From Antedon mediterranea (taxonomy: Eukaryota > Animalia > Echinodermata), in the NCBI RefSeq assembly GCF_964355755.1, contig NC_092672.1:32680437-32744436 (forward strand): a stretch of DNA of 64,000 bases, read 5' to 3'. Shown here in pieces: positions 10,431 to 63,396 of the stretch (the stretch's first letter is position 1; every line of letters starts with the position of its first letter). The position numbers and the translations under genes were made by a program. The notes beneath the pieces were generated by a model. The model saw only the letters and a list, made by a program, of their open reading frames with translations, was not told where the DNA came from and ran no database searches.

Positions 10431-10454
10431 TTATGGATCCTGGTCGAGCACTGC

Positions 10455-21469: not shown

Positions 21470-24400
21470 ATGGAAGACAACAGAAAAAGACAACGTTATC
21501 GTGGCAGTCGTGGGCGGGGTGGTAAAAAAAATAAACAAAAATGTTTAACAAGCAAATCGAACGTAATAGAGAAAGCTTTGAAGACAGTCTGCGAAAATGG
21601 TGGTAGTATTTCTTTTGAAGATCTTGAAGCGAAAGTTGGAAAGATTTCACCTGATCTAGAAAGTTTTGAATACATGATATCACATCTTGATCATGAGTAT
21701 TACCATTTTACCTTGGTAGACCATGAAGATGGTAGTACTGATGTTCAAGTGTTCACTCAAGTTAAGATCTGCCCGTCCTACCAAAAGAATGGCGAATGCA
21801 GGAAAGGTGATACTTGCTCAGATTTACACCTGTGTGGTTACTTTGCTACAGGTACGGTTTATAATTGGCAGCCATTGTATTGCTAATTTTGTTTTTCAAT
21901 TTTTTATGTTATAAAAGTATAAAATTCATTTTTGTATCTTAATGCAACTTGTCTATATTTAGTGGGCCTCCTATCAAAAACTGTTTGTATTGGAGTTTCT
22001 TGAAGGTCCCTTTCATCTAAATTAAATTAATTACTCTTAATTTGTACTTTTTTATTTCTTTCATTAAAGGTTCTTTCTGCAAGTTTAAGATAAACTGTAG
22101 ACAAACTCATCATTATCGATCAGATCACAACAAGCAGGTGTTAAGGAATTTCAAAATTGCCTTCTTGTCCCAGGGACTGGCAAGTGTGCTATTTCGATGG
22201 TCCTGGCCACAGTTTACTGTTCCCGATTTCTGTGGGAAATACCGCAGCAAGACCGGTTGTGGCAAGCATAATTGCAGATTTCTACACATTTGCAAGTAAG
22301 AAACAATCTGTAAAACCACCCCGCAATTTGATTTGGGGTATGTTATGCACCATGTGCCCGCTGCGTAGTTTGCACTGTTACATACCAAAATTTACTATAT
22401 TCTTTACAAAATGGAAGAACCATCAACATTTTAGTGAGAATGCTATGGATTTTACCAAAAAAAAAAGATAATTAATTCAGCAATACCTGTATATGCATTG
22501 CTTTTACAAAATGTATACATTTATACGGCTTTACCACGTTGAAACACTGTCTTTAAACTCCCTTTGTGTTCATTATGTGCATTTCAGAAATCATGTTATG
22601 GAAACTTGCAAATTTGGCGCACGGTGTAAGTTTGCCCATGATATTTACCACGATAGATTTAATACTCAATTACTAAAGCAGTTTGGGATTAGACTTGGCA
22701 GCAGTTCTGATGATATAATCCGCCTTATTAAGGAGCGCCATGAAGGATTCTATCGTCCTGATGTTGAGGTGCTTCAGGGTGAATGTGAAAAAACTGAGAG
22801 TGAATACAGTTTTGGGGAACGCAGCTGTGAGGAAGAAAGCCAATACAGCCAAGAAGACGGCAGCGATGACGATAGAGAAAGCATTGTATCTAGTTCTACT
22901 AATGAATTATATCAGGGAGCAGGTATGTTAAGTATACTATCATTTTACCAACAAAACAGCTAATTGGAGAGAAAAAGTGCAGATGATCAAATAATCATAC
23001 AAAGATATCTCCCAAGTTTCCGATAATTACAAATGATTCCCAACATTTTGAGAGATTTCTTGTCATTTCCCACCAAATTCTCCTAATTGTTTTGGTACAA
23101 AAAAGACATCCTGAAATGCATAAATTTATCATTTAGGCTCTACTAATATAAAAATGCATTGCCATCACAATGCATGTCATCATAATAATGCCAAGCTTGA
23201 AGTGCCTGCTTACTGTAGATGCTGATGCTAGATATTTTTAAAATAGCGCCATCTATTGGTGGTTGTATTTTGCTTTTAAAATATATCGTCCTCTATGGTA
23301 ATATAATATATCCCGTTTTAAAATTTTTCTTTCTTTTAAACAAAATGATATACACACCGGCAGCAAAATTTAAATATTGTTTTATTTTAATTTTTTTAAT
23401 TTTATGTATTTAAGCACATGTGGCCAACTGGGTGCACCGTGTACACTGGACCTACGTTTTTTTTATAGTCCTATTCATGAAGACTTGTTCCACCACCAGA
23501 ACTCGGAGCAGTTTGGCCGTGAACACATGTCGATATTGTTGGCTCTTTAGGTACAGTAAACAGCGCCCCTACCTTAACTGCTCAGCCATTTGACTCACTT
23601 ATACCAATAGATATTATTATTATTAAAATTTAATTTTATTTCTAATTAGCTTCCAACGCTAGACAAAGGTACAGACATCGCCATCGTGGTCGCCGCCGTA
23701 ATTATAATCGAAGAAAGAAAGAAGAAAGTCTCACAAGTAAATCTTCTGTCGCTGAGAGATCACTGCAAGTAGTCTGTCAAAATGGTGGTAGTATTTCAGC
23801 GCAAGATCTTAAAGAGAAAGTTGGAAAGATTTCACCCGATCTAGGAAGTTTGGAAAACATCATATCAGACCTTGATCATGAGAATTACCATTTTAAGTTC
23901 ATAGACTATGAAGATGGTAATGTTGATGTTGAAGTGTACACTCAAGTTAATATCTGTCAAACATATCAAAAGAATGAATGCACCGATGACTGCACTGATT
24001 TACACCTGTGTGGCTACTTTGCTACAGGTATGGTAGTCTGTATTAACCCACCTAAACATGTTCCTCACCCCAAAACATGTTTTACATTAATGCAAAATCA
24101 GAAGTGCTTCTATGCAGAAGAGGTAAAGCCCAATCTAGTTCCCTCCAGACTTTAATATAGTTTGTTTTACTGGAGGAAGACCACGAAACCCCTGTTCCTC
24201 TCACATGCAATTCTAAAGTTTGTGTAACTTTTGAAACTTGACACAGAAAGTATATTACTCTAACCATTTGGTATTTTTCAATATATACAGTACATAAAGT
24301 ATGTAATATTCAAGATCACTCTCAGTGCAGAGAGGTATAACAATATTTTTAGTCGCGTGGAAGCGACTCTATAGTTCACTATGTCGGTCGGTCTGTCGGT

Positions 24401-27400
24401 CTGTCTGTCGGTCCGGTATCACTATACGTTTTATCGCTTTCTGACCTTATCTTGATATCAGTTTAATCTAGCTAAGTCAATTTTTCACAGTATATTCCTT
24501 ATGGCCAGGAATCGATGTGGTTATGTTTTCACGGTGTGCAATAAAAAATTACGCGGTCTACGCACGATTTAACAAAATCACGTTTGTAATCATATCTTCA
24601 CAACCATGAATCACAATTAAATAAAATTTGGTACTCATAAATTTCAGGGCATAAATCATCATATGGCAATACAATTACGTGCGTAGCGCATGTAACGCAT
24701 GCGTACGCGCGCTTAAAATTTTCAAAATTTATTTTCGATGAAATAAGAGTACGTTTCAGGCAATTTTAAGCGTTTACAAAATTGCCATGAGTACGCAGAT
24801 TTTTGCGCGCGCACTGCACGTTAAATGTTATTGCGCACTCTTTTTGCCCGATTTCTGTTTTCTTGACTTACTTTTCAACTCGAAATTACGTTATACGAGC
24901 ACGTCAAAAGTGACAGGCTACGCACGTGTAAATTAAAAAAATATGTAAAAACTGTTTTTAAACATTTCAACATTTTTAAACATGTTCAGTAATTTTGGTC
25001 AGTTGGTAGGTTGGTCGGTCGGTCGGTAAACACTAAGCAGGCGACTGCAGCCATCTATATGGCCTTGTTATTTTATACCTTCCTGCACAATATACCAGAT
25101 TTTGATCCCAGTATCATGGGAATATTCGGTAGTGTATAGCACCACATGTGTATCACATGTGATGCCTGTATCATGTTAGGGAAGGTATTGACTTAAGTTA
25201 TGGTTAGTGTCATTGTTTGTCATTTCTTTTTTTTTAAATTGTTTGTAATTTTATTCTTCTCATTAAAAGGCTCTTGCTGCTGGTTTGGACGGCAAAGCTG
25301 TAGAAAAAGTCATGATTTTCGATCGGATTACAACAACCAAGTTTTAAAAAACTTTGGCATTGCCTTTCTAATACATGACGAGTTGAAAACTTTGCTTCGA
25401 TGGAAATGTCCACAGTTTACAGTTCCAGAATTCTGTGGACAATACAGAAGAAACATGGGCTGTGGCAAAGAACGCTGCAGGTTTCTACATATATGCAGGT
25501 AAGAGTATTTCACAGTAAAATCCAGCACTGACCAATAGTTAAGTGATGATAACTAAACAAATAATATCATTTGAATGTGGTGAAGTATACTGGAGTTTTT
25601 AAGCTTTTTATTACTGAATTGTAGAAGCACGGCCTATTATGTTAGTAATATCTATGTATGACTTGATGATGGTAAACTGTATATCTAAGGAGTTATTCCA
25701 ACATTTCCCACAATTTGTAATGTTAATATGGTTGTATTTATATAGTAGATATTAGCTCTTTTAGCAGATTTTCCAAAAGTGATTGAAATAAAAGACAGAT
25801 TGAATGACAATGACAACACTTGGTTTCCTTTCTCATGATAATTAGAATCATGTAAGTTACAAAATAATAATTCTGCTTTTCAGAAATTTTGTGATGGAAA
25901 CTTGCAGCTATGGAAAAAGATGCAAGTTTGCCCATGACATCTATCAAATAGAGTCTAATAAGGAATTACTGTATAGGTTTCAAATTAGTCTTGCCTATAG
26001 CTCGGATGATGTCATCCGCTTGATCAAAGAGCGCCATCAGGAAATCTATCGACCTGATCTTGAGGTCTTGCAGAGTGATGGAGAAGATAATCAATGTAGT
26101 CAGGAAGAGTGCATTGATGAAGAAGAAAGTCCAGAAATCAGTCCACCTATCTCTCCTATATTAATTACTCATAGGGATTTCGTTTCTCAAGAGTACTCAA
26201 GAAGAGATACTTTTACTCATAAACCAGAACAAATGGTTAGACAAACAAGCTCAAAACACAATTTTGCTCCATTTAAATCAAACGTCCAAGATTTGCTTAA
26301 GAGTTCTGCAGTAGTGACATCAGCTAAACCATCAACACAATATGTTCCAAATAATGAGATACAACAGAAGTCACATCAAGTTCAACCTCTACCTAGTACC
26401 AAAGGAGAAAGGATTACACAACATGCACCATACCAGAAACAGGACAATTTCCAAGATATACCAAAGATGTCTTCGGTAATGACTGCAGTTAAACCATTGC
26501 AATATAACATTGCAACTAATCTGTTAGAAGAAAAGTCAGATATCCAGTCTGCATTCGTTTCTACAAGTCAAGTTCAACCACTATCTAGTAGTAGAAGCAA
26601 CGAAGAAAGAAACACATACACATACACATACAATCTAAGTCCAAAAAGTCCTTCATCAAACCTTAATTTCCAAGAAATGCCAACAAATTTGTCAGTTATG
26701 GCTGCAGCTAAACCATCAATATCACATATTGCAACTAATGTTTTAGAAATGAAGGTAGATTCTGCAAAGCAAGTTCAGTCACTACCTAGTAAAAAAAAAG
26801 AAATGGGTATTGCCAGATTCACAAAAAGTCCAATACAAGTGAAAATGAGAGAAATTTGCAAGGACAACCTGAAAGGAAACTGCAGTAGTGGCAGTATGTG
26901 TCAGAGAATGCATTGTGATCTTCCTTATCAATGGCAAATGTCCATTAATGATAGGTGGGTTGACTTTGATGATAGATCAAATCTGAAAGTGGAAGAAGGA
27001 TTTTCTGGAGAAATCACTGATTGTCCTCAGTTTCCTGTAAATACTACCATGTAAGTTTTGGACTCTTTATTGCTTAAGCCCTGTCTACACTTTATCAAAC
27101 TACTGTAGTTGACAAAAAAAGTGTGATGTACCCAAATATGGTTTTGATATGCCCAAATATTTTAGTGATATGACATCATCATGTCTCTGTGTAGACAGAG
27201 TTTTGGAAGTTTAAGTTAAGATTGTACTTTATGATAGTGTTGATGAAATTGAAGCACAAAATAAGCAGCTGGTATTGCAAAGAAAATTGTAGTTCAAGTT
27301 TTGTTTTTATATCTGCAAAATACATTCCATAACCAATTTATTGCTTGCTGACTACAATCACTAAGTTCATCCTGTTTATTCTACTTTAGTTATAAGAATT

Positions 27401-29794
27401 ATATGCAGTTGTATTTTTTGTATTAAAAAATCTGAATTTTGAAATGAATTAATGGCTATTACTCTTCTTCTTTTTAAAAAAGGGATGTGTGTTTTGATAG
27501 CATGCTTGCATCCGATGGGTTAGACCTCATTTCAGTTGAGCGACTGGAAGTCAAAGGTGATGAAGATGTTTCTGATGCCTATCTGGTATCTCCGTGGTCT
27601 TGGTATTGGCAGGATGAATGTGGAAAGTGGATTGAATACAGCGAACAGGTAGGCTTGTTTAAATATTTTATCTTCTCAACACTCCTCAACCAACAAAAAG
27701 AGAGCAGTAAGCAAGTAACTACAGTAAATAGTGCAGGGAAGAATAGTGCAGGAGCAGAGAAATATTGCTATTCATGCTCCAGCATACAGTACAGTATTTT
27801 GTATTATTAGAACATGATTAAAACAAGATTAATTTCCATTTTTAATTAGAATACCAAGCAGAGTGCACGATCAGACAAAGAAAGTTCAGATTTTGAAAGT
27901 TTGTTTAAAGCTTATAAAAATGAAAATGGAAGTTCCAGCGTTAAATTCAAGGCTGGCAATCAAAACTACACTTTGGACTTCTCTGCCATGAGCCAAACCA
28001 ATGATAGATACCATACCAAAAGACCTGTTTGTCGAAGACCAGTCAGACAGATAAAACCAAAGGATGTTGAGAAGTACAGAAAAGAAAAACCTTGGTAAAA
28101 AATAATAATTGTTAAATTATTCTTATTCGTATTTCTGAATTCAGAATTAATTATTTCTCCTAGATCATACGAAGGTATTTACTACCACATACTACTATGT
28201 TCCATTCTATAGCGGGTACTCTCCCTCATCACACACCAACCACCCCAGTAGTTTAAAATATTCCCAGTACAAATTCTGGTTATGTTGATCTAGTACTCTC
28301 AACCCCTAACCTTGTGTATGGAAGTTTGCAATAACAAACAAGTACTCAACCTGTAGCCCTAGTTTACTTTTACCAGGGAAGTTCATTTCACTCTTTCCTG
28401 CTGTTACCTTTTTTGTTATATTATATACTTAGGTTACACACTCATACTTTCCCAAGGACTTGGGATACAACCATCAAAACAAAAACACATTGTCTTGTAA
28501 GAGTGACTAAGGAAGCAAATAACGAAGAATACAAAGAAATATCCAAACTATTTAAAAGAACTCTTCCAGATGGAGCAATAACTCGACTTGAACGAGTCCA
28601 GAATGAGATCTGCTGGGAAGCATTTGCACGGTAAATTTTAAAATGATATGATAAATTGTTTACACTGTTTGACAGTAGTGATGTTATGGTATGAAAGATA
28701 CATACTAATTTATAATAGCAATGCTATAGTTAATGCACTTACTACTTTTCTTAATTTTTATTAAAAAGTTTTGGGCCATATTATAAGAGCTTATGACATG
28801 AAGGTTATGGAATTTTTAAATAAAGCCTAAAGAAGGCCTTTAGCCTCGAACCAGACCATTGGTTCCCCACTGCAGCCAAATGTTGATAGCTTCATTTGCC
28901 TGTCTACTTTAAATATTGTGTCTATTGACCCTGAACTCTTTTTTCATTGATTTTTTAACAATTTATTTTTGTCTCACAAGGCAAAGGGAAACCATGATGA
29001 AGAAAAACTCTCGTAGAAAAATTGAAGAGCTCCAACTGTTTCATGGAACAATGCAGGATAAAGTTGATGATATCTGTCGTGATAATTTTGACTTTCGCTT
29101 GAGTGGTACACGAGTTGGTCATGTTTATGGACAAGGAGCTTACTTCGCAAAGTCAGCAAAGTATTCCAATGATTACGCTGAAAAAGACAGTGCTGGTAGG
29201 AAGAGGATGTTTGTTGCAAGAATTCTTGTTGGTAGCTACACAGTTGGCACAAAAGAGATGCGCCGGCCACCGTTTAAAGACCCGGCAGATAAGTCAAAGG
29301 GGATGTATGACTCTTGTGTTGATGATGTAGCTAATCCAAGTATTTTTGTGGTGTTTGATAACCATCAGGTTTATCCAGAATATCTGATTACATATACCAT
29401 TTCATCGCCTAATACAACATTATCTAGAGCATCAAACATTCAACCATCTATTGCGACCTCCTACCCATCATCAAGAACTGCAGCAAGTGCCAGCCATTCA
29501 GGGTACAGTAACCCATATTCATCAAGCAGGTATAGCCCACCTACTGTCCGATCTTCAAGTTCAAACCAACCATCTTACACTAACAACCCATACTCAGCAA
29601 GCAGGTATAGCCCACCTACTGTCCGATCTTCAAGTTCAAACCAACCATCTTACACTAACAACCCATACTCAGCAAGCAGGTATAGCCCACCTACCATTCG
29701 ATCTTCAAGTTCAATCCAACCATCTTACAGTAGTCAAAGTAGTTTGCCAAGGAGGGACAGCAAAGCAGATAATAATAAATGTATTTGTATGTAA
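21470..29794 (+). CDS. PARP12: PARP12/ZAP(ZC3HAV1)-like protein, ~1379 aa: two modules of (N-terminal helical region + 4 CCCH), linker, CCCH, WWE-WWE, PARP (H-Y-I), Ser/Pro/Tyr repeats, CaaX (CICM). Exons 21470-21851, 22070-22295, 22588-22922, 23650-24027, 25270-25498, 25884-27050, 27483-27648, 27850-28094, 28433-28630, 28981-29794
   Basis: All introns GT-AG and phase-compatible; exons total 4140 nt; CCCH spacing; YQWQ...W and WYWQDECGKWIEY WWE motifs; LFHGT, YGQGAYFA, PSIFVVFD, YPEYLITY. Confidence 0.88.
23430..23600 (-). mobile_element. Diverged, truncated copy of the tRNA-derived SINE in intron 3
   Basis: gtgtacactggacctacg...tatagtcct...gaagact...caccagaac matches 6470-6530. Confidence 0.6.
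24346..25069 (+). mobile_element. Helentron-associated (HINE/DINE-1-like) non-autonomous element in intron 4
   Basis: Begins tttttagtcgcgtg; (gtcg/gtct)n microsatellite; subterminal inverted caggcgact; 3' hairpin gcc...ggccttgtt; absent from the paralogous introns. Confidence 0.7.
29510..29730 (+). repeat. Coding 75-bp tandem repeat x3 (NPYSASRYSPPTVRSSSSNQPSYTN)
   Basis: aacccata recurs at 29510, 29585 and 29660; same array at ~42842-43060. Confidence 0.9.
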
Positions 29795-35702: not shown

Positions 35703-38700
35703 ATGACAGACAACAGAAAAAGACAACGTTATCGTGGTGGCCGTGGGCGGAGTGGTCAAACAAATAAACAAAATTGTTTAACAAGCAAATCGCATGTGAT
35801 AGAGAAAGCTTTGAAGACAGTCTGTGAAAATGGTGGTAGTATTTCTTTTGAAGATCTTGAAGTAAAAGTTGGAAAGATTTCACCTGATCTAGAAAGTTTT
35901 GAATACATGATATCACATCTTGATCATGAGTATTACCATTTTACCTTGATAGACCATGAAGATGGTAATACTGATGTTCAAGTGTTTACTCAAGTTAAGA
36001 TCTGCCCGTCCTACCAAAAAAAATGGTGAATGCAGGAAAAGTGATACTTGCACAGATTTACACCTGTGTGGTTACTTTGCTACAGGTACGGTTTATAATT
36101 GGCAGTCTATTGTTTTGTTATTATTTTTTTTAATTTGTTATTTAAAAATAAGTATGATAACAGTTTTAAAAAATGTGTTAACAAAGCAAAAATGTGGACA
36201 TTCAACGAAACTTCCCCAGTAATTGTGTATTCAAAACTATTAACTAATTAAAGGCCTATTAATATGATCTGTAATCAAAACTTTGAAGTTTGAGACTTTA
36301 AAAAATGCAAAACAACATGTCTAAACTGAACATTTCTGGTATTCTGTGGCAATGGGCCAGAACCACGTTCTTGGTAAGGAAAGAGCAACTAAATAAGTTA
36401 TTTTATTAAAGGTTCTTTCTGCTGGTTTGGAAGAACTTGTAGCAAAACTCATCATTACCGATCAGATCACAACAAGCAGGTGTTAAGAAACTTTAAAATT
36501 GCCTTCTTGCCCCAAGAACAGGCAAGTGTGCTATTTCGATGGGCCTGGCCACATTTTACTGTTCCAGATTTCTGTGGAAAATACCGCAGTAATACAGGTT
36601 GTGGCAAGCATAATTGCAGATTTCTACATCTTTGCAAGTAAGAATAACTGATTTTTATAAATTCTTTAAAAGCTGAAATAAAGAAACTTTAAACCATCCA
36701 GCGATTGCTTGGATTGTGCTTCTTGTCTGTCTGTGGGGCCAACTACATAGTGTTAGAACCTTAACACTAGGTTCTTTTACCGAAACAGATATTGACCAAT
36801 TTACAACAATTAAGTTGTACAGCAACTTTTCTCATGCCCTCTTTGCATTTCAGAAATCATGTTATGGAAACTTGCAAATTTGGAGCACGATGTAAGTTTG
36901 ACCATGAAATTTACCATGATGGATCTAACACCCAATTATTGAAGCATTTTGGAATTAGACTGGGTAACAGTTCTGATGATATAATCCGCCTGATTAAAGA
37001 GCGCCATGAAGGATTCTATTGTCCTGATGTTGAGGTGCTTCAGGGTGAATATGCAAAAACTGAGAGCGAATATAGTTTTGGGGAACGCAGCGGTGAGGAA
37101 GAAAGCCAATACAGTCCAGAAGAGGGCAGCGATGACGATAGAGAAAGCATTGTATCTAGTTCTACTTATGAGTTATATCAGAGAGCAGGTAAGTTAAGTA
37201 TACTCTAAATTTACAAACAAAACAGCTAATTTGAGAGAAAAAAATGATTAATGAAGTGCAGATAATCAAATAATCATACAAAGATATCTCCCTTGTTAAT
37301 TACAAATGATTCCCAAAATTTCGAGAGATTTCTTGTCATTTCCCACCAAATTCTCCTGATTGTTTTAGTACAAAAAGAACATCCTGAAATTCATAAATTT
37401 ATCATTTAGGCTCTACAAATAAAAAAAATGCGTTGCCATCACAATGTACGTCATCATATGTCATGCTTGGAGTGCCTGGCTTACTGTAGATGCTGATGCT
37501 AGAAATTTAAAATAGCACCATCTATTGGTAGTTGTATTTTTCTTTAAAATATTGCGTCCTCTATGGTAATATAAAAATCCTGTTTTTTGAATAGATAAAT
37601 CATTAAATTTTAATTTTATTTCTAATTAGCTTCCAACACTAGACAAAGGCACAGACATCGCCATCGCGGTCGTCGACGTGATTATAATCGAAGAAAAAAA
37701 GAAGAAAGTCTGACAAGTAAATCTTCTGTGGCTGAGAGATCACTGCAAGTAGTCTGTCAAAATGGTGGTAGTATTTCAGCGCAAGACCTTAAAGAGAAAG
37801 TTGGAAAGGTTTCACCCGATCTAGGAAGTTTGGAAAACATCATATCAGACCTCGATCATGAGAATTACCATTTTAAGTTCATAGACTATGAAGATGATAA
37901 TGTTGATGTTACAGTGTACACCCAAGTTAATATCTGTCAAACATATCAAAAGAATGAATGCACAGATGACTGCACAGATTTACACCTGTGTGGTTACTTT
38001 GCTACAGGTACGGTAGTCTGCTTTAAGTTGCTGTTGTTGCTAACGTTTTCCGTCTTCCGACATTACGCTTTCCACAATTTGTTTCCATTTTTTTCTGTTT
38101 ATGGCAGGATGGTTTGTTATTGTGTTAGTGTCTACTAGTCCTTGTAAGTCTTTCTTTATTTGATTCATCCAGTTATTTCTTGGTCTTCCTATGGGTAGTT
38201 TTACTTTCGATCCTGTTAGTTTCCTTCATTGTTTGTTTGATTGGTAGTCTGCTTTAACCCACCTATTAAATGCAGTATCAGAAGTACCCTCTATGTAGAG
38301 GGGTAAAACCCCATCTATAGCTTCAATAGAATTTTTCTGGAGAAAGACTCCAAAACCCTTGTTCTTCTCATCTGCAATCTGAAGTTTGTGTATCTTTGGA
38401 AACTTTACACAGAAAGTATTACTGAAATATTTTAATCCTTTGCTATTTCAATATAATACAGTAATACTCAAGGAGAGACCACTCAATTTTCAGAGCAATT
38501 TTTTTCCCAGTATCATATGAATATTCGGTAATACAGTATCTCATATGTATCATATGCCTGTATCATGTAAGGTTAGGTTAATGGTTAGGTTATATGGTCT
38601 ATAATATAAGGCAATACATGTGAAACATGATAATTATGAATGATAATTAATAATTATTTATTATTTAACTTTGTTGTAAATTGTTTGTTATTTTTGTAAA

Positions 38701-41700
38701 TGTATTGTTATTATAAGGTTCTTACTGCTGGTTTGGACGGCAAAGCTGTAGAAAAAGTCATGATTTTCGATCGGATTACAACAACCAGGTTTTAAAAAAC
38801 TTTGGCATTGCCTTTCTGAGACATAATCAGTTGAAAACTCTACTTCGATGGAAGTGTCCACAGTTTACAGTACCAGAATTATGTGGACAATACAGAAGAA
38901 ACATGGGCTGTGGCAAGGAACACTGTAGGTTTCTACATATATGCAGGTAAGAATATTTCACATGTATAATAGTTGCAACCTCTGTAAAGTAAAAATTATT
39001 TATTTTATGATAAAATTAGTAAAATAATAAAAAGTGGTTCAGGTTCCTGGGCCGGATTGCCTCCAGCATTATCACACACACACAAATGAGGTAAATGAGG
39101 TAATAAAGTAATTATAACAAAACAAATATTTCATTTGCATTGAACCTTCAAGCATCATGGTCAATCTTCAAGTGCTAGTTATGAGAATAAGAATCATAAA
39201 ACTGCATAATAAAAAATTCTGTTTCCAGAAGTGTTGTGATGGAAACTTGCAGCTATGGAAAAAGATGCAAGTTTGCCCATGACATCTATCAAATAGAGTC
39301 CAATGTGGAATTACTGAATAAGTTTCAAATTAGCTATAGCTCGGATGATACCATCCGCTTGATCAAAGAGCGCCATCAGGGAATCTATCGACCTGATGTT
39401 GAGGTCTTGCAGAGTGACGGAGAAGATAATCAATGTAGTCAGGAAGAGTGCATCGATGAAGAAAGTCCAGAAATCAGTCCACCTATCTCTCCTATATTAA
39501 TTACTCATAGGGATTTCGTTTCTCAAGAATACTCAAGAAGAGATACTTTTACTCATAAATCGGAACAAATGGTTAGACAAACAAGTTCAAAACATAATTT
39601 TGCTCCATTTAAATCAAACGTCCAAGATATGCCTAAGAGTTCTTCGGTAATGATTGCAGCTAAGCAATCAACACAATATGTTGCAAATAATGAGATACAA
39701 CAGAAGTCATACCAAGTTCAACCACTACCTAGTACCAAAGGAGAAAGGATTACACAACATGCACCATACCAGAAACAGGACAATTTCCAAGATATACCAA
39801 AGATGTCTTCGGTAATGACTGCAGTTAAACCATTGCAATATGACATTGAAACTAATCTGTTAGAAGAAAAGTCAGATATCCAGTCTGCATTCGTTTCTAC
39901 AAGTCAAGTTCAACCACTATCTAGTTGTAGAAGCAACGAAGAAAGGAACACATACACATACACATACAATCTAAGTCCAAAAAGTCCTTCATCAAACCTT
40001 AATTTCCAAGAAATTCCAACAAATTTGTCAGTTATGGCTGCAGCTAAACCATCAATATCACATATTGCAACTAATGTTTTAGAAATGAAGGTAGATTCTG
40101 CAAAGCAAGTTCAGTCACTACCTAGTAAAAAAAAAGAAATGGGTATTGCCAGATTCACAAAAAGTCCAATACAAGTGAAAATGAGAGAAATTTGCAAGGA
40201 CTACCTGAAAGGAAACTGCAGTAGTGGCAGTATGTGTCAGAGAATGCATTGTGATCTTCCTTATCAATGGCAAATGTCCATTAATGGTAGGTGGGTTGAT
40301 TTTGATGATAGATCAAATCTGAAAGTGGAAGAAGGATTTTGTGGAGAAATCACTGATTGTCCTCAGTTTCCTGTAAATACTACCATGTAAGTTTTGGACT
40401 CTTTATTGCTTAAGCCCTGTCTACATTTTATCAAACTACTGTAGTTGACAATAAAAGTGTGATGTACCCAACTATGGTTGTGATATGCCCAAATATTTTA
40501 GTGATATGACATCATCATGTCTCTGTGTAGACAGAGTTTTGGAAGTTTAAGTAAAGATTGTACTTTATGATAGTGTTGATGAAATTGAAGCACAAAATAA
40601 GCAGCTGGTATTGCAAAGAAAATTGTAGTTCAAGTTTTGTTTTTATATCTGCAAAATACATTCCATAACCAATTTATTGCTTGCTGACTACAATCACTAA
40701 GTTCATCCTGTTTATTCTACTTTAGTTATAAGAATTATATGCAGTTGTATTTTTTGTATTAAAAAATCTGAATTTTGAAATGAATTAATGGCTATTACTC
40801 TTCTTCTTTTTAAAAAAGGGATGTGTGTTTTGATAGCATGCTTGCATCTGATGGGTTAGACCTCTTTTCAGTTGAGCGACTGGAAGTCAAAGGTGATGAA
40901 GATGTTTCTGATGCCTATCTGGTATCTCCGTGGTCTTGGTATTGGCAGGATGAATGTGGAAAGTGGATTGAATACAGCGAACAGGTAGGCTTGTTTAAAT
41001 ATTTTATCTTCTCAACACTCCTCAACCAACAAAAAGAGAGCAGTAAGCAAGTAACTACAGTAAATAGTGCAGGGAAGAATAGTGCAGGAGCAGAGAAATA
41101 TTGCTATTCATGCTCCAGCATACAGTACAGTATTTTGTATTATTAGAACATGATTAAAACAAGATTAATTTCCATTTTTAATTAGAATACCAAGCAGAGT
41201 GCACGATCAGACAAAGAAAGTTCAGATTTTGAAAGTTTGTTTAAAGCTTATAAAAATGAAAATGGAAGTTCCAGCGTTAAATTCAAGGCTGGCAATCAAA
41301 ACTACACTTTGGACTTCTCTGCCATGAGCCAAACCAATGATAGATACCATACCAGAAGACCTGTTTGTCGAAGACCAGTCAGACAGATAAAACCAAAGGA
41401 TGTTGAGAAGTACAGAAAAGAAAAACCTTGGTAAAAAATAATAATTGTTAAATTATTCTTATTCGTATTTCTGAAGTCAGAATTAATTATTTCTCCTAGA
41501 TCATACGAAGGTATTTACTACCACATACTACTATGTTCCATTCTATAGCGGGTACTCTCCCTCATCACACACCACCCCAGTAGTTTAAAATATTCCCAGT
41601 ACAAATTCTGGTTATGTTAATCTAGTACTCTCAACCCCTAACCTTGTGTATGGAAGTTTGCAATAACAAACAAGTACTCAACCTGTAGCCCTAGTTTACT

Positions 41701-43126
41701 TTTACCAGGGAAGTTCATTTCACTCTTTCCTGCTGTTACCTTTTTTGTTATATTATATACTTAGGTTACACACTCATACTTTCCCAAGGACTTGGGATAC
41801 AACCATCAAAACAAAAACACATCGTCTTGTAAGAGTGACTAAGGAAGCAAATAACGAAGAATACAAAGAAATATCCAAACTATTTAAAAGAACTCTTCCA
41901 GATGGAGCAATAACTCGACTTGAACGAGTCCAGAATGAGATCTGCTGGGAAGCCTTTGCACGGTAAATTTTAAAATTATATGATAAATTGTTTACACTGT
42001 TTGACAGTAGTGATGTTATGGTATGAAAGATACATACTAATTTATAATAGCAATGCTATAGTTAATGCACTTACTACTTTTCTTAATTTTTATTAAAAAG
42101 TTTTGGGCCATATTATAAGAGCTTATGACATGAAGGTTATGGAATTTTTAAATAAAGCCTAAAGAAGGCCTTTAGCCTCGAACCAGACCATTGGTTCCCC
42201 ACTGCAGCCAAATGTTGATAGCTTCATTTGCCTGACTACTTTAAATATTGTGTCTATTGACCCTGAACTCTTTTTTCATTGATTTTTTAACAATTTATTT
42301 TTGTCTCACAAGGCAAAGGGAAACCATGATGAAGAAAAACTCTCGTAGAAAAATTGAAGAGCTCCAACTGTTTCATGGAACAATGCAGGATAAAGTTGAT
42401 GATATCTGTCGTGATAATTTTGACTTTCGCTTGAGTGGTACACGAGTTGGTCATGTTTATGGACAAGGAGCTTACTTCGCAAAGTCAGCAAAGTATTCCA
42501 ATGATTACGCTGAAAAAGACAGTGCTGGTAGGAAGAGGATGTTTGTTGCAAGAATTCTTGTTGGTAGCTACACAGTTGGCACAAAAGAGATGCGCCGGCC
42601 ACCGTTTAAAGACCCGGCAGATAAGTCAAAGGGGATGTATGACTCTTGTGTTGATGATGCAGCTAATCCAAGTATTTTTGTGGTGTTTGATAACCATCAG
42701 GTTTATCCAGAATATCTGATTACATATACCATTTCATCGCCTAATACAACATTATCTAGAGCATCAAACATTCAACCATCTATTGCGACCTCCTACCCAT
42801 CATCAAGAACTGCAGCAAGTGCCAGCCATTCAGGGTACAGTAACCCATATTCATCAAGCAGGTATAGCCCACCTACTGTCCGATCTTCAAGTTCAAACCA
42901 ACCATCTTACACTAACAACCCATACTCAGCAAGCAGGTATAGCCCACCTACTGTCCGATCTTCAAGTTCAAACCAACCATCTTACACTAACAACCCATAC
43001 TCAGCAAGCAGGTATAGCCCACCTACCATTCGATCTTCAAGTTCAAACCAACCATCTTACAGTAGTCCAAGTAGTTTGCCAAGGAGGGACAGCAAAGCAG
43101 ATAATAATAAATGTATTTGTATGTAA
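35703..43126 (+). pseudogene. PARP12/ZAP-like copy 2: +1 frameshift in exon 1, remaining nine exons apparently intact (36412-36637, 36854-37188, 37630-38007, 38718-38946, 39229-40386, 40819-40984, 41186-41430, 41765-41962, 42313-43126)
   Basis: A8 run at 36016-36023 replaces aaaagaa of copy 1, giving a stop at 36029; downstream splice sites and ORFs conserved; ends CICM. Confidence 0.7.
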
Positions 43127-49787: not shown

Positions 49788-52700
49788 ATGACAGACAACA
49801 GAAAAAGACAACGTTATCGTGGTGGCCGTGGGCGGAGTGGTCAAACAAATAAACAAAATTGTTTAACAAGCAAATCGCATGTGATAGAGAAAGCTTTGAA
49901 GACAGTCTGTGAAAATGGTGGTAGTATTTCTTTTGAAGATCTTGAAGTAAAAGTTGGAAAGATTTCACCTGATCTAGAAAGTTTTGAATACATGATATCA
50001 CATCTTGATCATGAGTATTACCATTTTACCTTGATAGACCATGAAGATGGTAGTACTGATGTTCAAGTGTTTACTCAAGTTAAGATCTGCCCATCCTACC
50101 AAAAAAAATGGTGAATGCAGGAAAAGTGATACTTGCACAGATTTACACCTGTGTGGTTACTTTGCTACAGGTACGGTTTATAATTGGCAGTCTATTGTTT
50201 TGTTATTATTTTTTTTAATTTGTTATTTAAAAATAAGTATGATAACAGTTTTTAAAAATGTGTTAACAAAGCAAAAATGTGGACATTCAAAGAAACTTCC
50301 CCAGTAATTGTGTATTCAAAACTATTAACTAATTAAAGGCCTATTAATATGATCTGTAATCAAAACTTTGAAGTTTGAGACTTTAAAAAATGCAAAACAA
50401 CATGTCTAAACTGAACATTTCTGGTATTCTGTGGCAATGGGCCAGAACCACGTTCTTGGTAAGGAAAGAGCAACTAAATAAGTTATTTTATTAAAGGTTC
50501 TTTCTGCTGGTTTGGAAGAACTTGTAGCAAAACTCATCATTACCGATCAGATCACAACAAGCAGGTGTTAAGAAACTTTAAAATTGCCTTCTTGCCCCAA
50601 GAACAGGCAAGTGTGCTATTTCGATGGGCCTGGCCACATTTTACTGTTCCAGATTTCTGTGGAAAATACCGCAGTAATACAGGTTGTGGCAAGCATAATT
50701 GCAGATTTCTACATCTTTGCAAGTAAGAATAACTGATTTTTATAAATTCTTTAAAAGCTGAAATAAAGAAACTTTAAACCACCCAGCGATTGCTTGGATT
50801 GTGCTTCTTGTCTGTCTGTGGGGCCAGCTACATAGTGTTAGAACCTTAACACTACGTTCTTTTACCGAAACAGATATTGACCAATTTACAACAATTAAGT
50901 TGTACAGCAACTTTTCTCATGCCCTCTTTGCATTTCAGAAATCATGTTATGGAAACTTGCAAATTTGGAGCACGATGTAAGTTTGACCATGAAATTTACC
51001 ATGATGGATCTAACACCCAATTATTGAAGCATTTTGGAATTAGACTGGGTAACAGTTCTGATGATATAATCCGCCTGATTAAAGAGCGCCATGAAGGATT
51101 CTATTGTCCTGATGTTAAGGTGCTTCAGGGTGAATATGCAAAAACTGAGAGCGAATATAGTTTTGGGGAACGCAGCGGTGAGGAAGAAAGCCAATACAGT
51201 CCAGAAGAGGGCAGCGATGACGATAGAGAAAGCATTGTATCTAGTTCTACTTATGAGTTATATCAGAGAGCAGGTAAGTTAAGTATACTCTAAATTTACA
51301 AACAAAACAGCTAATTTGAGAGAAAAAAATGATTAATGAAGTGCAGATAATCAAATAATCATACAAAGATATCTCCCTTGTTAATTACAAATGATTCCCA
51401 AAATTTCGAGAGATTTCTTGTCATTTCCCACCAAATTCTCCTGATTGTTTTAGTACAAAAAGAACATCCTGAAATTCATAAATTTATCATTTAGGCTCTA
51501 CAAATAAAAAAAATGCGTTGCCATCACAATGTACGTCATCATATGTCATGCTTGGAGTGCCTGGCTTACTGTAGATGCTGATGCTAGAAATTTAAAATAG
51601 CACCATCTATTGGTAGTTGTATTTTTCTTTAAAATATTGCGTCCTCTATGGTAATATAAAAATCCTGTTTTTTGAATAGATAAATCATTAAATTTTAATT
51701 TTATTTCTAATTAGCTTCCAACACTAGACAAAGGCACAGACATCGCCATCGCGGTCGTCGACGTGATTATAATCGAAGAAAAAAAGAAGAAAGTCTGACA
51801 AGTAAATCTTCTGTGGCTGAGAGATCACTGCAAGTAGTCTGTCAAAATGGTGGTAGTATTTCAGCGCAAGACCTTAAAGAGAAAGTTGGAAAGGTTTCAC
51901 CCGATCTAGGAAGTTTGGAAAACATCATATCAGACCTCGATCATGAGAATTACCATTTTAAGTTCATAGACTATGAAGATGATAATGTTGATGTTACAGT
52001 GTACACCCAAGTTAATATCTGTCAAACATATCAAAAGAATGAATGCACAGATGACTGCACAGATTTACACCTGTGTGGTTACTTTGCTACAGGTACGGTA
52101 GTCTGCTTTAAGTTGCTGTTGTTGCTAACGTTTTCCGTCTTCCGACATTACGCTTTCCACAATTTGTTTCCATTTTTTTCTGTTTATGGCAGGATGGTTT
52201 GTTATTGTGTTAGTGTCTACTAGTCCTTGTAAGTCTTTCTTTATTTGATTCATCCAGTTATTTCTTGGTCTTCCTATGGGTCGTTTTACTTTCGATCCTG
52301 TTAGTTTCCTTCATTGTTTGTTTGATTGGTAGTCTGCTTTAACCCACCTATTAAATGCAGTATCAGAAGTACCCTCTATGTAGAGGGGTAAAACCCCATC
52401 TATAGCTTCAATAGAATTTTTCTGGAGAAAGACTCCAAAACCCTTGTTCTTCTCATCTGCAATCTGAAGTTTGTGTATCTTTGGAAACTTTACACAGAAA
52501 GTATTACTGAAATATTTTAATCCTTTGCTATTTCAATATAATACAGTAATACTCAAGGAGAGACCACTCAATTTTCAGAGCAATTTTTTTCCCAGTATCA
52601 TATGAATATTCGGTAATACAGTGTCTCATATGTATCATATGCCTGTATCATGTAAGGTTAGGTTAATGGTTAGGTTATATGGTCTATAATATAAGGCAAT

Positions 52701-55700
52701 ACATGTGAAACATGATAATTATGAATGATAATTAATAATTATTTATTATTTAACTTTGTTGTAAATTGTTTGTTATTTTTGTAAATGTATTGTTATTATA
52801 AGGTTCTTACTGCTGGTTTGGACGGCAAAGCTGTAGAAAAAGTCATGATTTTCGATCGGATTACAACAACCAGGTTTTAAAAAACTTTGGCATTGCCTTT
52901 CTGAGACATAATCAGTTGAAAACTCTACTTCGATGGAAGTGTCCACAGTTTACAGTACCAGAATTATGTGGACAATACAGAAGAAACATGGGCTGTGGCA
53001 AGGAACACTGTAGGTTTCTACATATATGCAGGTAAGAATATTTCACATGTATAATAGTTGCAACCTCTGTAAAGTAAAAATTATTTATTTTATGATAAAA
53101 TTAGTAAAATAATAAAAAGTGGTTCAGGTTCCTGGGCCGGATTGCCTCCAGTTGCCTCTAAATTTGGTAAAGATCCGTCTTTTAGTTTTTGACATTATCA
53201 CACACACACAAATGAGGTAAATGAGGTAATAAAGTAATTATAACAAAACAAATATTTCATTTGCATTGAACTTTCAAGCATCATGGTCAATCTTCAAGTG
53301 CTAGTTATGAGAATAAGAATCATAAAACTGCATAATAACAAATTCTGTTTCCAGAAGTGTTGTGATGGAAACTTGCAGCTATGGAAAAAGATGCAAGTTT
53401 GCCCATGACATCTATCAAATAGAGTCTAATGTGGAATTACTGAATAAGTTTCAAATTAGCTATAGCTCGGATGATACCATCCGCTTGATCAAAGAGAGCG
53501 CCATCAGGGAATCTATCGACCTGATGTTGAGGTCTTGCAGAGTGACGGAGAAGATAATCAATGTAGTCAGGAAGAGTGCATCGATGAAGAAAGTCCAGAA
53601 ATCAGTCCACCTATCTCTCCTATATTAATTACTCATAGGGATTTCGTTTCTCAAGAATACTCAAGAAGAGATACTTTTATTCATAAATCGGAACAAATGG
53701 TTAGACAAACAAGTTCAAAACATAATTTTGCTCCATTTAAATCAAACGTCCAAGATATGCCTAAGAGTTCTTCGGTAATGATTGCAGCTAAGCAATCAAC
53801 ACAATATGTTGCAAATAATGAGATACAACAGAAGTCATACCAAGTTCAACCACTACCTAGTACCAAAGGAGAAAGAATTACACAACATGCACCATACCAA
53901 AAACAGGACAATTTCCAAGATATACCAAAGATGTCTTCGGTAATGACTGCAGTTAAACCATTGCAATATGACATTGAAACTAATCTGTTAGAAGAAAATT
54001 CAGATATCCAGTCTGCATTCGTTTCTACAAGTCAAGTTCAACCACTATCTAGTAGTAGAAGCAACGAAGAAAGAAACACATACACATACACATACAATCT
54101 AAGTCCAAAAAGTCCTTCATCAAACCTTAATTTCCAAGAAATGCCAACAAATTTGTCAGTTATGGCTGCAGCTAAACCATCAATATCACATATTGCAACT
54201 AATGTTTTAGAAATGAAGGTAGATTCTGCAAAGCAAGTTCAGTCACTACCTAGTAAAAAAAAAAAGAAATGGGTATTGCCAGATTCACAAAAAGTCCAAT
54301 ACAAGTGAAAATGAGAGAAATTTGCAAGGACTACCTGAAAGGAAACTGCAGTAGTGGCAGTATGTGTCATAAAATGCATTGTGATCTTCCTTATCAATGG
54401 CAAATGTCCATTAATGATAGGTGGGTTGACTTTGATGATAGATCAAATCTGAAAGTGGAAGAAGGATTTTGTGGAGAAATCACTGATTGTCCTCAGTTTC
54501 CTGTCAATACCACCACTACCAAGTTTTGGACTCTTTATTGCTTAAGCCTTACACTTTATCAAACTAGTTGACAAAAAAAGTGTGATGTACCCAAATATGG
54601 TAGTGATATGCCCAAACATTTTTTTGTCACATAAAGTTTGATAGTGTAGACAGAGTTTTGGAAGTTTAAATTATGAGATTGTACAATCGAAGCAGCTGGT
54701 ATTGCAAAGAAAAGTGTAGTTCAAGTTTTGTTTTTATATCTGCAAAATACATTCCATAACAAATTTATTGCTTGCTGACTACAATCACTAAGTTCATCCT
54801 GTTTGATCTACTTTAGTTATAAGAATTATATGCAGTTGTATTTTTTGTATTTGAATCTGAATTTTGAAATGAATTAATGGCTCTTACTCTTCTTTTTAAA
54901 CAAGGGATGTGTGTTTTGATAGCATGCTTGCATCTGATGGGTTGGACCTTATTTTAGTTGAGCGACTGGAAGTCAAAGGTGATGAAGATGTTTCAGATGC
55001 CTATCTGGTATCTCCGTGGTCTTGGTATTGGCAGGATGAATGTGGAAAGTGGATTGAATATAGTGAACAGGTAGGCTTGTTTAAATATTCCATCTTCTCA
55101 ACACTCCTCAACCAACAAAAAGAGAGCAATAGGCAAGTAGCTACAGTGTAGTACAGGGAAGAATAGAGCAGGAGCAGAGAAGGATTGCTATTCATGCTCC
55201 AGCATGCAGTACAGTATTTTATATATTAGAACATGATTAAAACAAGATTAATTTCCATTTTTAATTAGAATACCAAGCAGAGTGCACGATCAGACAAAGA
55301 AAGTTCAGATTTTGAAAGTTTGTTTAAAGCATATAAAAATGAAAATGGAAGTTTCAGCGTTAAATTCAAGGCTGGTAATCAAAACTACACTTTGGACTTC
55401 TCTGCCATGAGCCAAACCAATGATAGATACCATACCAGAAAACCCGTCTGTCGAAGGCCAGTCAGACAGATAAAACCAAAGGATGTTGAGAAGTACAGAA
55501 AAGAAAAACCTTGGTAAAAAGACTAAAATGAATTATTTTTATTCATATTTCTGAAGTCAGAATTCATTATTTCTCCTAGATCATATATTTACTACCACAT
55601 ACTGCTATTTTCCACTCCATAGCGAGTACTCTCCCTCATCACACCCCACTGCAGTAGTTTAAAATCTTCCCAGTACAAATTCTGGTTATTTTGATCCAGT

Positions 55701-56791
55701 ACTCCCACCCAACCCATAAACTTGTTATTGTACACAATAACAAACATTTACTTTCCAAGTACTCAACCTGTAGCCAAGTAGTTTACTCTTGCCAGGAAAG
55801 TTCATTTCACTCTTTCCTGCTGTTACCTTTTTTGTTATATTATATACTTAGGTTACACACTCATACTTTCCCAAGGACTTGGGATACAACCATCAAAACA
55901 AAAACACATCGACTTGTAAAAGTGACTAAGGAAGCAAATAACGAAGAATACAGAGAAATCTCCAAATTATTTAAAAGAACTCTTCCAGATGGAGCAATAA
56001 CTCGACTTGAACGAGTCCAGAATGAGATCTGCTGGGAAGCATTTGCACGGTAAATATTGAAATTGTATATTATATATATTATATGACTACTTTAAATATT
56101 GTGTCTATTGACCCTAAACTCTTTTTCATCAATTTATTTTTGTCTCACAAGGCAAAGAGAAACCATGATGAAGAAAAACTCTCGTAGAAAAGTTGAAGAG
56201 CTCCAACTGTTTCATGGAACAATGCAGGATAAAGTTGATGATATCTGTCGTGATAATTTTGACTTTCGCTTGAGCGGGACACGAGTTGGGCATGTTTATG
56301 GACAAGGAGCTTACTTCGCAAAGTCAGCAAAGTATTCCAATGATTACGCTGAAAAAGACAGTGTTGGTAGGAAGAGGATGTTTGTTGCAAGAATTCTTGT
56401 TGGTAGCTACACAGTTGGCACAAAAGAGATGCACCGGCCACCGTTTAAAGACCCGGCAGATAAGTCAAAGGGGATGTATGACTCTTGTGTTGATGATGTC
56501 GCTAATCCAAGTATTTTTGTGGTGTTTGATAACCATCAGGTTTATCCAGAATATCTGATTACATAAACCATTTCATCGCATAGTACAACATTATCTAGGG
56601 CATCAAACATTCAACCATCTGGTAGTGCGACCTCCTACCAGTCAGCAAGAACTGTAGCAATGAATTCAGCAAACTGGTATAACCCACCTACCAGTCGTTC
56701 TTCAAGTTCAAACCAACCATCTTACAATAGTCCAAGTAGTTCGCCAAGGAGGGACAGCAAAGCAGATAATAATAAATGCATTTGCATGTAA
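49788..56791 (+). pseudogene. PARP12/ZAP-like copy 3, multiply inactivated
   Basis: Same exon-1 A8 frameshift (50101-50108); +2 at ~53495; +1 at ~54260; exon-6 donor lost (~54520); TAT>TAA at 56564-56566; vestigial CICM* at 56777-56791. Confidence 0.85.
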
Positions 56792-61700: not shown

Positions 61701-63396
61701 CATGAACTTGTAAGAGTGACTGATAGAAAAGAATACAAAGAAATATCTGCACTATTTAAAAGAACTCTTCCAGATGGAGCAATAATTCGAATTGAACGAG
61801 TTGAAAATGAGAAATGCCGGAAAGCATTTGCATGGTAAATATTTATAATAATTATTATATGAACAGTTTAATATACTGGTGTATATTTGATGTCGACACT
61901 GATTCCTCCTTCATTTACTTTACATTTTTTAAATATTTTCTCAGGTCATCTCTTCGACTCATTTTAACTTTTCTGAGGCATGCACTAATGCAGCTAATTT
62001 GTTTCAGTTGAGTTTCGGGTCGAAATGTGATGTTTTCCTTAGTTTTTCGAATAAATTCATGATTTTTTTTTATCTCACAAGGCAAAAATGCACGATGATA
62101 GGAAACTCTAACAAAGAGATTGAAGAGCTCCAACTGTTTCATGGAACAATGCAGGATAGAGTTGAAGATATCTGTCGTGATAATTTGGATTTTCGCTTGA
62201 GCGGTTCACGAGTTGGTAATATTTATGGACAAGGAGCTTACTTCGCAAAGTCAGCAAAGTATTCCAATGATTATGCTGGAACAGACAGTGTTGGTAGGAA
62301 GAGGATGTTTGTTGCAAGAGTTCTTGTTGGTAGCTACACAGTTGGCACAAAAGAGATGCCCCGGCCACCGTTTAAAGACCCGGCAGATAAGTCAAAGGGG
62401 ATGTATGACTCTTGTGTTGATGATGTAGCTAATCCAAGTATTTTTGTAGTGTTTAATAACAACCAGTTTTATCCAGAATATCTGATTACATATACCATTT
62501 CATCGCATAATAAAACATTATCTAGAGCATCAACCATTTCATCTAGATCACAGCGGCGGCGGCAGGATCCTCCCGACGCGGAGGCTGAATTCCCCAACGA
62601 GGGGGCTGAATTCTCCGACAAGGGGGCTGAATTCTCCGACGTGGAGGCTGAATTCCCCGACAAGGGGACTATGCGAGCATCACTAGATTGGGGGCCAGAG
62701 AGGCTGCAGTGGCGCCAGAATCTTCCCGACGAGGGGGATGAATTCCCCGACGAGGGGGATGAATTCCCCGACGAGGGGGCTATGCGAGCATCACTAGATT
62801 GGGGGAAAGGGAGGCAGCGGTGGCGCCAAGATCTTTCCGACGAGGTGTCTGAATACTCCGACAAGGGAGCTGAATTCCCCGACGAGGGGGCTATGCGAGC
62901 ATCACTAGATTGGGGGTCAGGGAGCCAGCGGTGGCGCCAAGATCTTTCCGACGAGGTGTCTGAATACTCCGACGAGGGAGCTGAATTCCCCGACGAGGGG
63001 GCTATGCGAGAATCACTAGATTGGGAGAAAAGGAGGCAGCGGTGGCACCTTCCCGACGAGGGGGCTGAATTCTCTGACGAGGAAGCTGAATTCCCCGACG
63101 AGGGGGCTATGCGAACATCACTAGATTTGGGGCCACAGAAACAGCGATTGCGCCAGGCTCTTCCAGACGCGGGGGCTGAATTCCCCGACGAGGGGGCTAT
63201 GCGAGCATCACTAGATTGGGGGCCAGAGAGACAGAGATTGCGCCGGGCTATTCCCGACGCGGGTGCTGAATTCCCCGACGTGGAGGCTATGCGAGCATCA
63301 CTAGATTGGGGTCAGGGAAGCGGTCAAGGGCCAGAAGGCGAAGGACCCCGGGTCCAGAAGAAGGCGAAGCCCCCGGAAGCATGCATTCTAGCGTAA
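58705..63396 (+). CDS. Predicted ~1073-aa protein: tandem DED-like domains, TRADD-N-like domain, PARP (H-Y-I), acidic repeats, CaaX (CILA). Exons 58705-58717, 58956-59495, 59691-60458, 60911-61304, 61643-61834, 62082-63396
   Basis: All five introns GT-AG and phase-compatible; total 3222 nt with no stops; death-fold-like helices (LKVLYQGKI...DLLNQLTDSGDLS; GWNLLLDLQHKQII); CIVFTF...LANLWNMYQTGELL; LFHGT, GAYFA, PSIFVVF. Confidence 0.78.
62570..63315 (+). repeat. GC-rich coding repeat: 21-bp unit gaattccccgacgagggggct (EFPDEGA) nested in higher-order units containing MRASLDWG
   Basis: Visible periodicity; same unit also at ~61160-61240. Confidence 0.92.

What the first reader, a model, noticed from the sequence alone, without database searches (positions are those of the whole stretch)
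21470..26060. ZAP/PARP12-like protein with the entire 4-zinc-finger RNA-binding module duplicated (9 CCCH in total)
Seen: exons 1-3 and exons 4-6(5') are paralogous, with identical intron phases. Each has an Arg-rich leader, an helical region and four CCCH fingers, and the two have diverged substantially. Known: vertebrate ZAP and PARP12 have one such module; in ZAP it recognises CpG in viral RNA. Inference: avidity gain or dual RNA specificity.
Basis: partly seen in the sequence, partly recalled or inferred. Interest (0 to 1): 0.7.

Follow-up and report, generated by a model that had tools for sequence, protein, structure and literature searches.

The report
Feather star ZAP-like gene, doubled module
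A feather star gene related to the antiviral proteins ZAP and PARP12 carries its four-zinc-finger module twice in one spliced reading frame, which likely lets it grip RNA at two sites but probably not through ZAP's CpG pocket, and similar repeats turn up in corals, sea anemone, amphioxus and other invertebrates.

Summary
A 10-exon gene (21470-29794, +) encodes 1379 aa, identical to RefSeq XP_071946186.1 of the crinoid Antedon mediterranea. Exons 1-3 and 4-6(5') each encode a basic leader, winged helix and four CCCH fingers (61% identical, same intron phases); a ninth finger, WWE, an H-Y-I PARP domain and a CaaX-like end follow. Contigs of one spliced public run join exons 1-2, 2-3 and 3-4, so both modules are in one reading frame. 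Both are under purifying selection (dN/dS 0.29) and fold as separate ZAP-like domains on a disordered linker. The crinoid doubling arose independently of those. Best reading: a predicted membrane-anchored mono-ADP-ribosyltransferase that gains RNA avidity in cis. RNA binding is untested. A new variant of a known kind.

The parts
21470..21851 (+). Coding exon 1: basic leader, winged helix, finger 1 and start of finger 2 of module 1. An AG acceptor lies 2 nt before the ATG, so an upstream exon is likely.
   Evidence: run X1 contig 4 is laid from 21466 and has 99 more letters beyond it
22070..22295 (+). Exon 2: rest of finger 2, helical linker, finger 3 of module 1
   Evidence: matches ZAP 6l1w at E 1.6e-5; joints 1-2 and 2-3 in run X1
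22588..22922 (+). Exon 3: finger 4, end helices of module 1, acidic linker (aa 263-314, net -13); ends in a phase-1 donor
   Evidence: X1 contig 5 letters 1-335
23650..24027 (+). Exon 4: basic leader, winged helix, finger 1 of module 2 (paralogue of exon 1)
   Evidence: follows exon 3 in X1 contig 5
25270..25498 (+). Exon 5: fingers 2-3 of module 2 (paralogue of exon 2)
25884..27050 (+). Exon 6: finger 4 of module 2, long low-complexity stretch, ninth finger (26857-26913) and first WWE
   Evidence: matches ZAP central domain 7kzh at aa 839-1026, E 1.5e-23
27483..28094 (+). Exons 7 (27483-27648) and 8 (27850-28094): second WWE domain
28433..29794 (+). Exons 9 (28433-28630) and 10 (28981-29794): PARP catalytic domain with H1130-Y1163-I1230, Ser-rich repeat tail, C-terminal CICM (29780-29791)
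   Evidence: (PARP12 2pqf, E 3e-49)
35703..43126 (+). Tandem copy 2, also double-module; +1 frameshift in exon 1 at about 36016, exons 2-10 open; a mosaic of copy 3 (5') and copy 1 (3')
49788..56791 (+). Tandem copy 3, double-module, same exon-1 frameshift, two more in exon 6, deleted tail; RefSeq keeps only a 334-aa WWE-PARP piece like it (P0001)
60900..63396 (+). Copy 4: low-complexity piece and PARP domain with a repeat tail ending CILA; no finger module or WWE found in the window

Best explanation
This is a crinoid PARP12/ZAP-family gene whose three-exon winged-helix-plus-four-finger cassette was duplicated in tandem and spliced into one frame, giving a predicted membrane-anchored mono-ADP-ribosyltransferase that likely binds one RNA at two sites, probably not by CpG, in a likely antiviral role. 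Shown: one frame, spliced joints 1-2, 2-3 and 3-4, eight intact fingers in two modules, purifying selection. Origin (inferred): a segment from the first coding exon into the large finger-4 exon was copied; the upstream copy ends at a phase-1 donor that fits the phase-1 acceptor of the downstream copy's first exon. Working (inferred): two independently folded modules on an 80-residue flexible tether bind two sites on one single-stranded RNA, raising dwell time on motif-dense RNA, as vertebrate ZAP does through self-association and TRIM25. The ninth finger and WWE pair would bind poly(ADP-ribose), the H-Y-I domain would mono-ADP-ribosylate nearby proteins, and CICM would be farnesylated and hold the protein on endomembranes.
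For: Frame and RefSeq identity. Run X1: GT..AG joints at introns 1 and 2, absent from runs X2 and X3; contig 5 holds exon 3 (6 differences in 335, against 30 for copy 2), 121 letters, then a stretch laid on exon 1 with 9 letters missing, the exact arithmetic of exon 4. dN/dS between modules 0.29, bootstrap 0.19-0.43, dS 0.84. AlphaFold2 with 55 rows: mean pLDDT 81.9, about 90 in both modules, under 50 over aa 258-336, pTM 0.50; the 5 Foldseek matches under E 0.001 are all ZAP N-terminal structures. Triad as in PARP12. ZAP works by multivalent RNA recognition (PMC11685948, passages) and needs its CaaX box (PMC8568172, passages). The three-module Nematostella protein XP_001636351.2 is reported as strongly cGAMP-induced (PMC11784840, passage).
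Against: No binding, enzyme or infection data exist here. Human PARP12, which has the same module, showed no detectable RNA cross-linking (PMC8102003, passage), and the crinoid modules lack two ZAP contacts, so they may bind RNA poorly. The ZAP fold match is loose (TM 0.51-0.56, rmsd about 8 A). The splice evidence is one run of one study, as separate contigs; no single molecule spans exons 1-6, and a contig keeping intron 2 also exists (depth 5.4). The cGAMP paper itself does not mention PARP or ZAP in its main text. The gene lies in an unstable array in which 2 of the 3 double-module copies are frameshifted.
Confidence: 0.55

Rival explanations
1. Dual specificity: the two modules read different RNA motifs and widen the target range, or act as an AND gate.
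For: They differ at the Y108 site (Q139, K453), next to the Y98 site (K132, W445), in finger-1 spacing (C-x8-C-x5-C, C-x7-C-x3-C) and in charge; 39% divergence kept under selection.
Against: K89, K107 and F144 sites are the same in both (G, R, F) and finger 4 is nearly identical; dN/dS shows constraint, not diversifying selection (whole-module average only).
Confidence: 0.2
2. The modules are mainly protein-binding platforms (cofactor or nuclease recruitment, self-assembly, granules), and doubling raises cofactor valency rather than RNA avidity.
For: PARP12 showed no RNA cross-links; ZAP's N-terminal domain also binds KHNYN and TRIM25; module 2 core is net acidic.
Against: Each module keeps a strongly basic leader, aromatic residues at the Y98 and F144 sites and a finger 4 with both aromatic positions.
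Confidence: 0.15
3. A tolerated by-product of unequal crossing-over in an unstable immune array: the second module is kept folded but adds no function, or is often spliced out.
For: The array shows recent unequal exchange; phases would allow exon 1-5 and exon 2-6 skips; copies 2 and 3 have lost module 1's frame.
Against: dS 0.84 with dN/dS 0.29 between modules and 0.23 for module 1 between copies 1 and 2; all 32 zinc ligands intact; exon 3-4 contig depth 13.5 is no lower than the other joints.
Confidence: 0.1

Closest known systems
Vertebrate PARP12 (ARTD12)
   Same: Winged helix + 4 CCCH, fifth CCCH, two WWE, PARP with H-Y-I; best solved-structure match (E 3e-49).
   Different: N-terminal module present twice; 250-aa low-complexity insert; CaaX-like end, which human PARP12 lacks.
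ZAP / PARP13 (ZC3HAV1), long isoform
   Same: Same module and fold, long low-complexity middle, C-terminal CaaX.
   Different: Two modules; K89 and Y108 contacts lost; catalytic triad intact; not in the tetrapod/lungfish ZAP lineage as defined in PMC8102003 and PMC12204182.
Invertebrate multi-module ZAP-like PARPs: Nematostella XP_001636351.2 / XP_032241892.1, Montipora XP_068694759.1, Ptychodera XP_070560794.1, Branchiostoma XP_019646028.1 and XP_078703702.1, Hyalella XP_018009429.1
   Same: Two or three four-finger modules before one finger-WWE-PARP unit; several end in a CaaX-like motif.
   Different: Their modules are far more diverged from each other; the crinoid pair groups with the single Anneissia module (100/100), and holding module 1 with their first modules is rejected (p-AU 9e-9), so the crinoid doubling is separate and younger.
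Anneissia japonica XP_033104169.1 (P0007)
   Same: Closest full-length relative, 55-60% identical to each module, same G/R/K/F pocket sites as module 2, same CICM end.
   Different: One module, 805 aa.

Membership tests
PARP12/13-type zinc-finger PARP | N-terminal winged helix + four CCCH fingers | tested here: met
   Twice; Pfam PF24356 and PF25261; profile covers positions 1-225 in both
PARP12/13-type zinc-finger PARP | Fifth CCCH + two WWE domains | tested here: met
   aa 839-1026 matches ZAP 7kzh at E 1.5e-23; PF02825 strong, PF23466 weak at E 0.017
PARP12/13-type zinc-finger PARP | C-terminal PARP domain, triad ending in Ile or Val | tested here: met
   H1130-Y1163-I1230; Ile is the mark of clade 3E in PMC2964712 (passage)
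PARP12/13-type zinc-finger PARP | Mono-ADP-ribosyltransferase activity | not testable with these tools
   Predicted from the triad only
ZAP (PARP13) proper | Finger-2 CpG pocket: K89, Y98, K107, Y108, F144 | tested here: not met
   Module 1 G123, F133, R138, Q139, F176; module 2 G436, F446, R452, K453, F490. The Y98 site lies in a gapped loop and is less sure. Sequence mapping only.
ZAP (PARP13) proper | Descent from the lungfish/tetrapod duplicate of PARP12 | tested here: not met
   Crinoid modules form their own clade apart from all vertebrate modules
ZAP (PARP13) proper | C-terminal CaaX box | tested here: met
   Ends CICM; prenylation itself untested
ZAP (PARP13) proper | CpG-selective RNA binding and TRIM25/KHNYN-dependent decay | not testable with these tools
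   No genome held for a cofactor search; no binding data

The most novel reading that the evidence does not exclude
Invertebrate ZAP-like PARPs have repeatedly built multivalent RNA recognition into one chain by multiplying the whole four-finger module, where vertebrate ZAP relies on self-association and TRIM25. An old multi-module subfamily is shared by cnidarians and amphioxus and includes a cGAMP-induced Nematostella gene; this crinoid gene is a young, independent repeat of the same invention, reading a non-CpG mark of foreign RNA from a membrane anchor that predates tetrapods.
Probability: 0.3. Interest if true: 0.7.

Novelty: new variant of a known kind. Interest (0 to 1): 0.45.

Why it matters
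What ZAP's ancestors recognised before CpG is open, and ZAP is thought to need several RNA-binding domains brought together. A natural two-module chain whose halves are still 61% alike, with a single-module relative as control, makes both questions testable in one construct series. The survey also shows that multi-module versions are widespread in invertebrates, which the papers I searched do not describe; that lowers the surprise of this one gene but raises the worth of the pattern.

Tried and rejected
Word-indexed protein search with exon 1 found nothing, and with aa 25-590 only P0007; the full profile search showed these blanks were a limit of sensitivity. A single-sequence fold failed (pLDDT 35) and was not used. 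The ESM Atlas and the VIA-align search did not complete. No genome is held, so the rest of the array and cofactors were not searched. No run is on record as RNA; X1 is taken as RNA only because of its GT..AG joints. Reads were laid only on 21000-23360, so joints 4-5 to 9-10 were not seen, and the loose-end table was cut, so skipped isoforms were neither seen nor excluded. Rejected: two separate genes (exon 3-4 join); annotation artefact from fused whole genes (only one WWE-PARP unit; two fish hits P0129 and P0132 are of that fused kind and were set apart); contig 5 coming from copies 2 or 3; CpG specificity. Dating the duplication after the Antedon-Anneissia split is not established: 90/89 support in one tree, a different order at 60/38 in another, AU p 0.17. 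Earlier findings: nothing listed. Meagher 2019 was not held, so pocket residues come from two later papers. No complex was predicted.
Full report
1. The gene. Ten exons between 21470 and 29794 on the + strand, all with GT-AG introns, give one open frame of 1379 aa. [quoted passage not shown] The gene is therefore already annotated, with the same exons.

2. The duplication is real. Residues 1-270 and 315-590 align at 163 of 267 identical; exons 1/4, 2/5 and 3/6 pair at 76, 71 and 74% in DNA, and intron phases run 1,2 | 1 | 1,2. The score is 868 against at most 72 in 500 shuffles. Each half has a basic leader, a winged helix and four complete CCCH fingers; a ninth finger precedes the WWE pair. 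A profile of the module covers positions 1-225 twice in P0121 and once in Anneissia P0007.

3. Both halves are in one transcript frame. Of three runs laid on 21000-23360, X1 shows joints that skip intron 1 (GT..AG, depth 9.0) and intron 2 (GT..AG, depth 9.25); X2 and X3 do not and cover the introns. X1 contig 5 (1432 letters, depth 13.5) holds exon 3 in letters 1-335, then 121 letters, then a stretch laid on exon 1 with 41 differences and 9 letters missing. Exon 4 is 121 + 257 letters and its last 257 differ from that part of exon 1 by about 38 mismatches and 9 net gaps, so the contig joins exon 3 to exon 4. Its exon 3 has 6 differences from copy 1, while copy 2 has 30, and 5 of the 6 are not the letters of copies 2 or 3. 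The remaining 718 letters were not seen. This is one run of one study, in separate contigs, and one X1 contig keeps intron 2.

4. Both halves are maintained. Over 241 codons dS is 0.84, dN 0.24, ratio 0.29 (bootstrap 0.19-0.43). AlphaFold2 on aa 25-582 with 55 rows gives two confident domains and a disordered stretch at aa 258-336, pTM 0.50, which fits two domains without a fixed relative position (inference). Foldseek's 5 matches under E 0.001 are the ZAP N-terminal structures, TM 0.51-0.56 to the target, rmsd about 8 A.

5. The CpG pocket is not kept. ZAP contacts are K89, Y98, K107, Y108 (PMC8102003, passage) and Y108, F144 (PMC8568172, passages). With the human ZAP chain printed, module 1 has G, F, R, Q, F and module 2 G, F, R, K, F at K89, Y98, K107, Y108, F144. 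Anneissia has G, R, K, F at the four sites scored, so the loss is older than or as old as the doubling. Of 236 modules aligned, 13 kept a ZAP-like set at those four sites. CpG reading is unlikely; the RNA target is unknown.

6. The rest of the chain. Residues 839-1026 match ZAP's finger-WWE-WWE domain (E 1.5e-23) and 1066-1251 match PARP12's catalytic domain (E 3e-49). The triad is H1130-Y1163-I1230, which predicts mono-ADP-ribosylation. The protein ends CICM, a CaaX-like box as in long ZAP, where farnesylation is needed for activity.

7. How unusual. A profile search of 1.84 billion representatives found 1667 proteins at E 0.001 or better and listed the best 150. Of these 150, 53 have two or more four-finger cores, 25 have two or more with the winged helix, and 10 have two or more cores and a PARP domain. 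The ranking favours repeats, so these are not frequencies. Two of the 10 are fish models of two whole genes fused (P0129, P0132). The other 8 have 2-3 modules before one PARP: Ptychodera, Montipora (two genes), Nematostella, Branchiostoma (two genes), Hyalella, and an unnamed protein seen on many 5-6 kb Logan contigs. I looked up 20 of the multi-core proteins; 9 representatives carried no name. The Nematostella cluster includes XP_001636351.2, three modules by my profile, which PMC11784840 names as one of two zinc-finger PARPs strongly induced by cGAMP (passage). None of the 120 proteins, mostly fish and amphibian, showed two full modules.

8. Origin. In trees of modules, the two Antedon modules and the Anneissia module form a clade at 100/99-100 (99 in the quick 75-row tree). 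Holding module 1 with the first modules of amphioxus and Nematostella is rejected (p-AU 9e-9). The crinoid doubling is thus independent. Whether it came after the Antedon-Anneissia split is open (90/89; unresolved and AU p 0.17), and a second Anneissia gene, P0008, is cut at its N-terminus. In the 75-row tree the last modules of amphioxus group with later cnidarian modules (99), which hints at an old multi-module subfamily; that tree is a quick one with midpoint root.

9. The array. Three more copies follow. Copies 2 and 3 have both modules but a +1 shift in exon 1 that stops at codon 109; copy 3 has more breaks. An inserted A at the matching place is in contigs of X2 and X3. Copy 2 matches copy 3 in exons 1-5 (99.5-100%) and copy 1 in exons 7-10 (98.8-99.6%), the mark of unequal crossing-over in exon 6. 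Copy 1 is the only intact double-module gene in the window.

10. Mechanism. Work on ZAP proposes multivalent recognition, with self-association and TRIM25 lining up several RNA-binding domains (PMC11685948, abstract and passages). Two tethered modules would give that valency in cis. This is inference. Against it, human PARP12 gave no RNA cross-links. I put avidity at 0.55, dual specificity at 0.2, a protein scaffold at 0.15 and a neutral by-product at 0.1.

11. In print. Searches listed no paper on multiplied ZAP modules or on crinoid PARP12. Passages read in PMC8102003, PMC12204182, PMC11784840, PMC2964712 and PMC4245714 describe invertebrate members as having the ordinary PARP12/13 layout. 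I saw passages only, no figures or supplements; the domain tables of PMC11784840 and PMC12204182 may show repeats. Subscription papers are not covered.

12. Verdict. Real, spliced and selected; a new variant of the PARP12/ZAP kind; not CpG-specific as far as sequence tells; not unique. Interest 0.45.

Noticed in passing
window 29780-29791 and proteins: A CaaX-like end is common far outside tetrapods: 83 of 120 hits end in C-x-x-x (crude count), many of them fish, as do crinoid (CICM), Nematostella and Montipora (CSVM) and Ptychodera (CVLM) proteins. PMC12204182 places the gain of ZAP's CaaX box in tetrapods; it may be ancestral and lost in PARP12.
   Followed up: partly
window 33234-33806, 46922-47494, 58931-59506, with next exons 34624-35570, about 48710-49653, 59690-60649: A death-effector-domain-like ORF (PF01335, E 2e-4 and 1.5e-5, below cut-off) with a phase-1 donor and a second exon sits just upstream of copies 2, 3 and 4 but not copy 1. 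The second exon is open only in copy 4, which may be a DED-PARP fusion gene or a separate gene.
   Followed up: partly
window 133-1881, 12884-14848, 17728-18969 (- strand): Three single-ORF paralogues of a SAM-methyltransferase-like protein (PF11312 weak). Two end in CILL (CaaX-like); the middle one is fused to three RRM domains resembling poly(A)-binding protein. The last lies head to head with copy 1.
   Followed up: no
window 19595-20357: A 760-base inverted repeat (83% self-match) with inner tandem repeats, MITE-like, between the methyltransferase gene and copy 1.
   Followed up: no
window 33902-34416 and 47592-48502: 21-base minisatellite in the intron of the DED-like gene, longer in copy 3 than in copy 2.
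   Followed up: no
window 8279-12135 (- strand): Two tandem, 97% identical, broken copies of a transposon-like ORF.
   Followed up: no
P0260/P0299 (Hyalella), P0130/P0271 (Amphibalanus): Crustaceans have ZAP-type modules, against the arthropod absence stated in PMC8102003 but in line with PMC11784840.
   Followed up: partly
P0124-P0127, P0133-P0143: Many long proteins made of 3-7 ZAP-type modules or finger pairs with no WWE or PARP detected; most are unnamed ENA gene calls and may be exon fragments.
   Followed up: no
window exons 1-6: Intron phases would allow exon 1-5 and exon 2-6 skips, giving chimeric single-module isoforms; not seen and not excluded.
   Followed up: no
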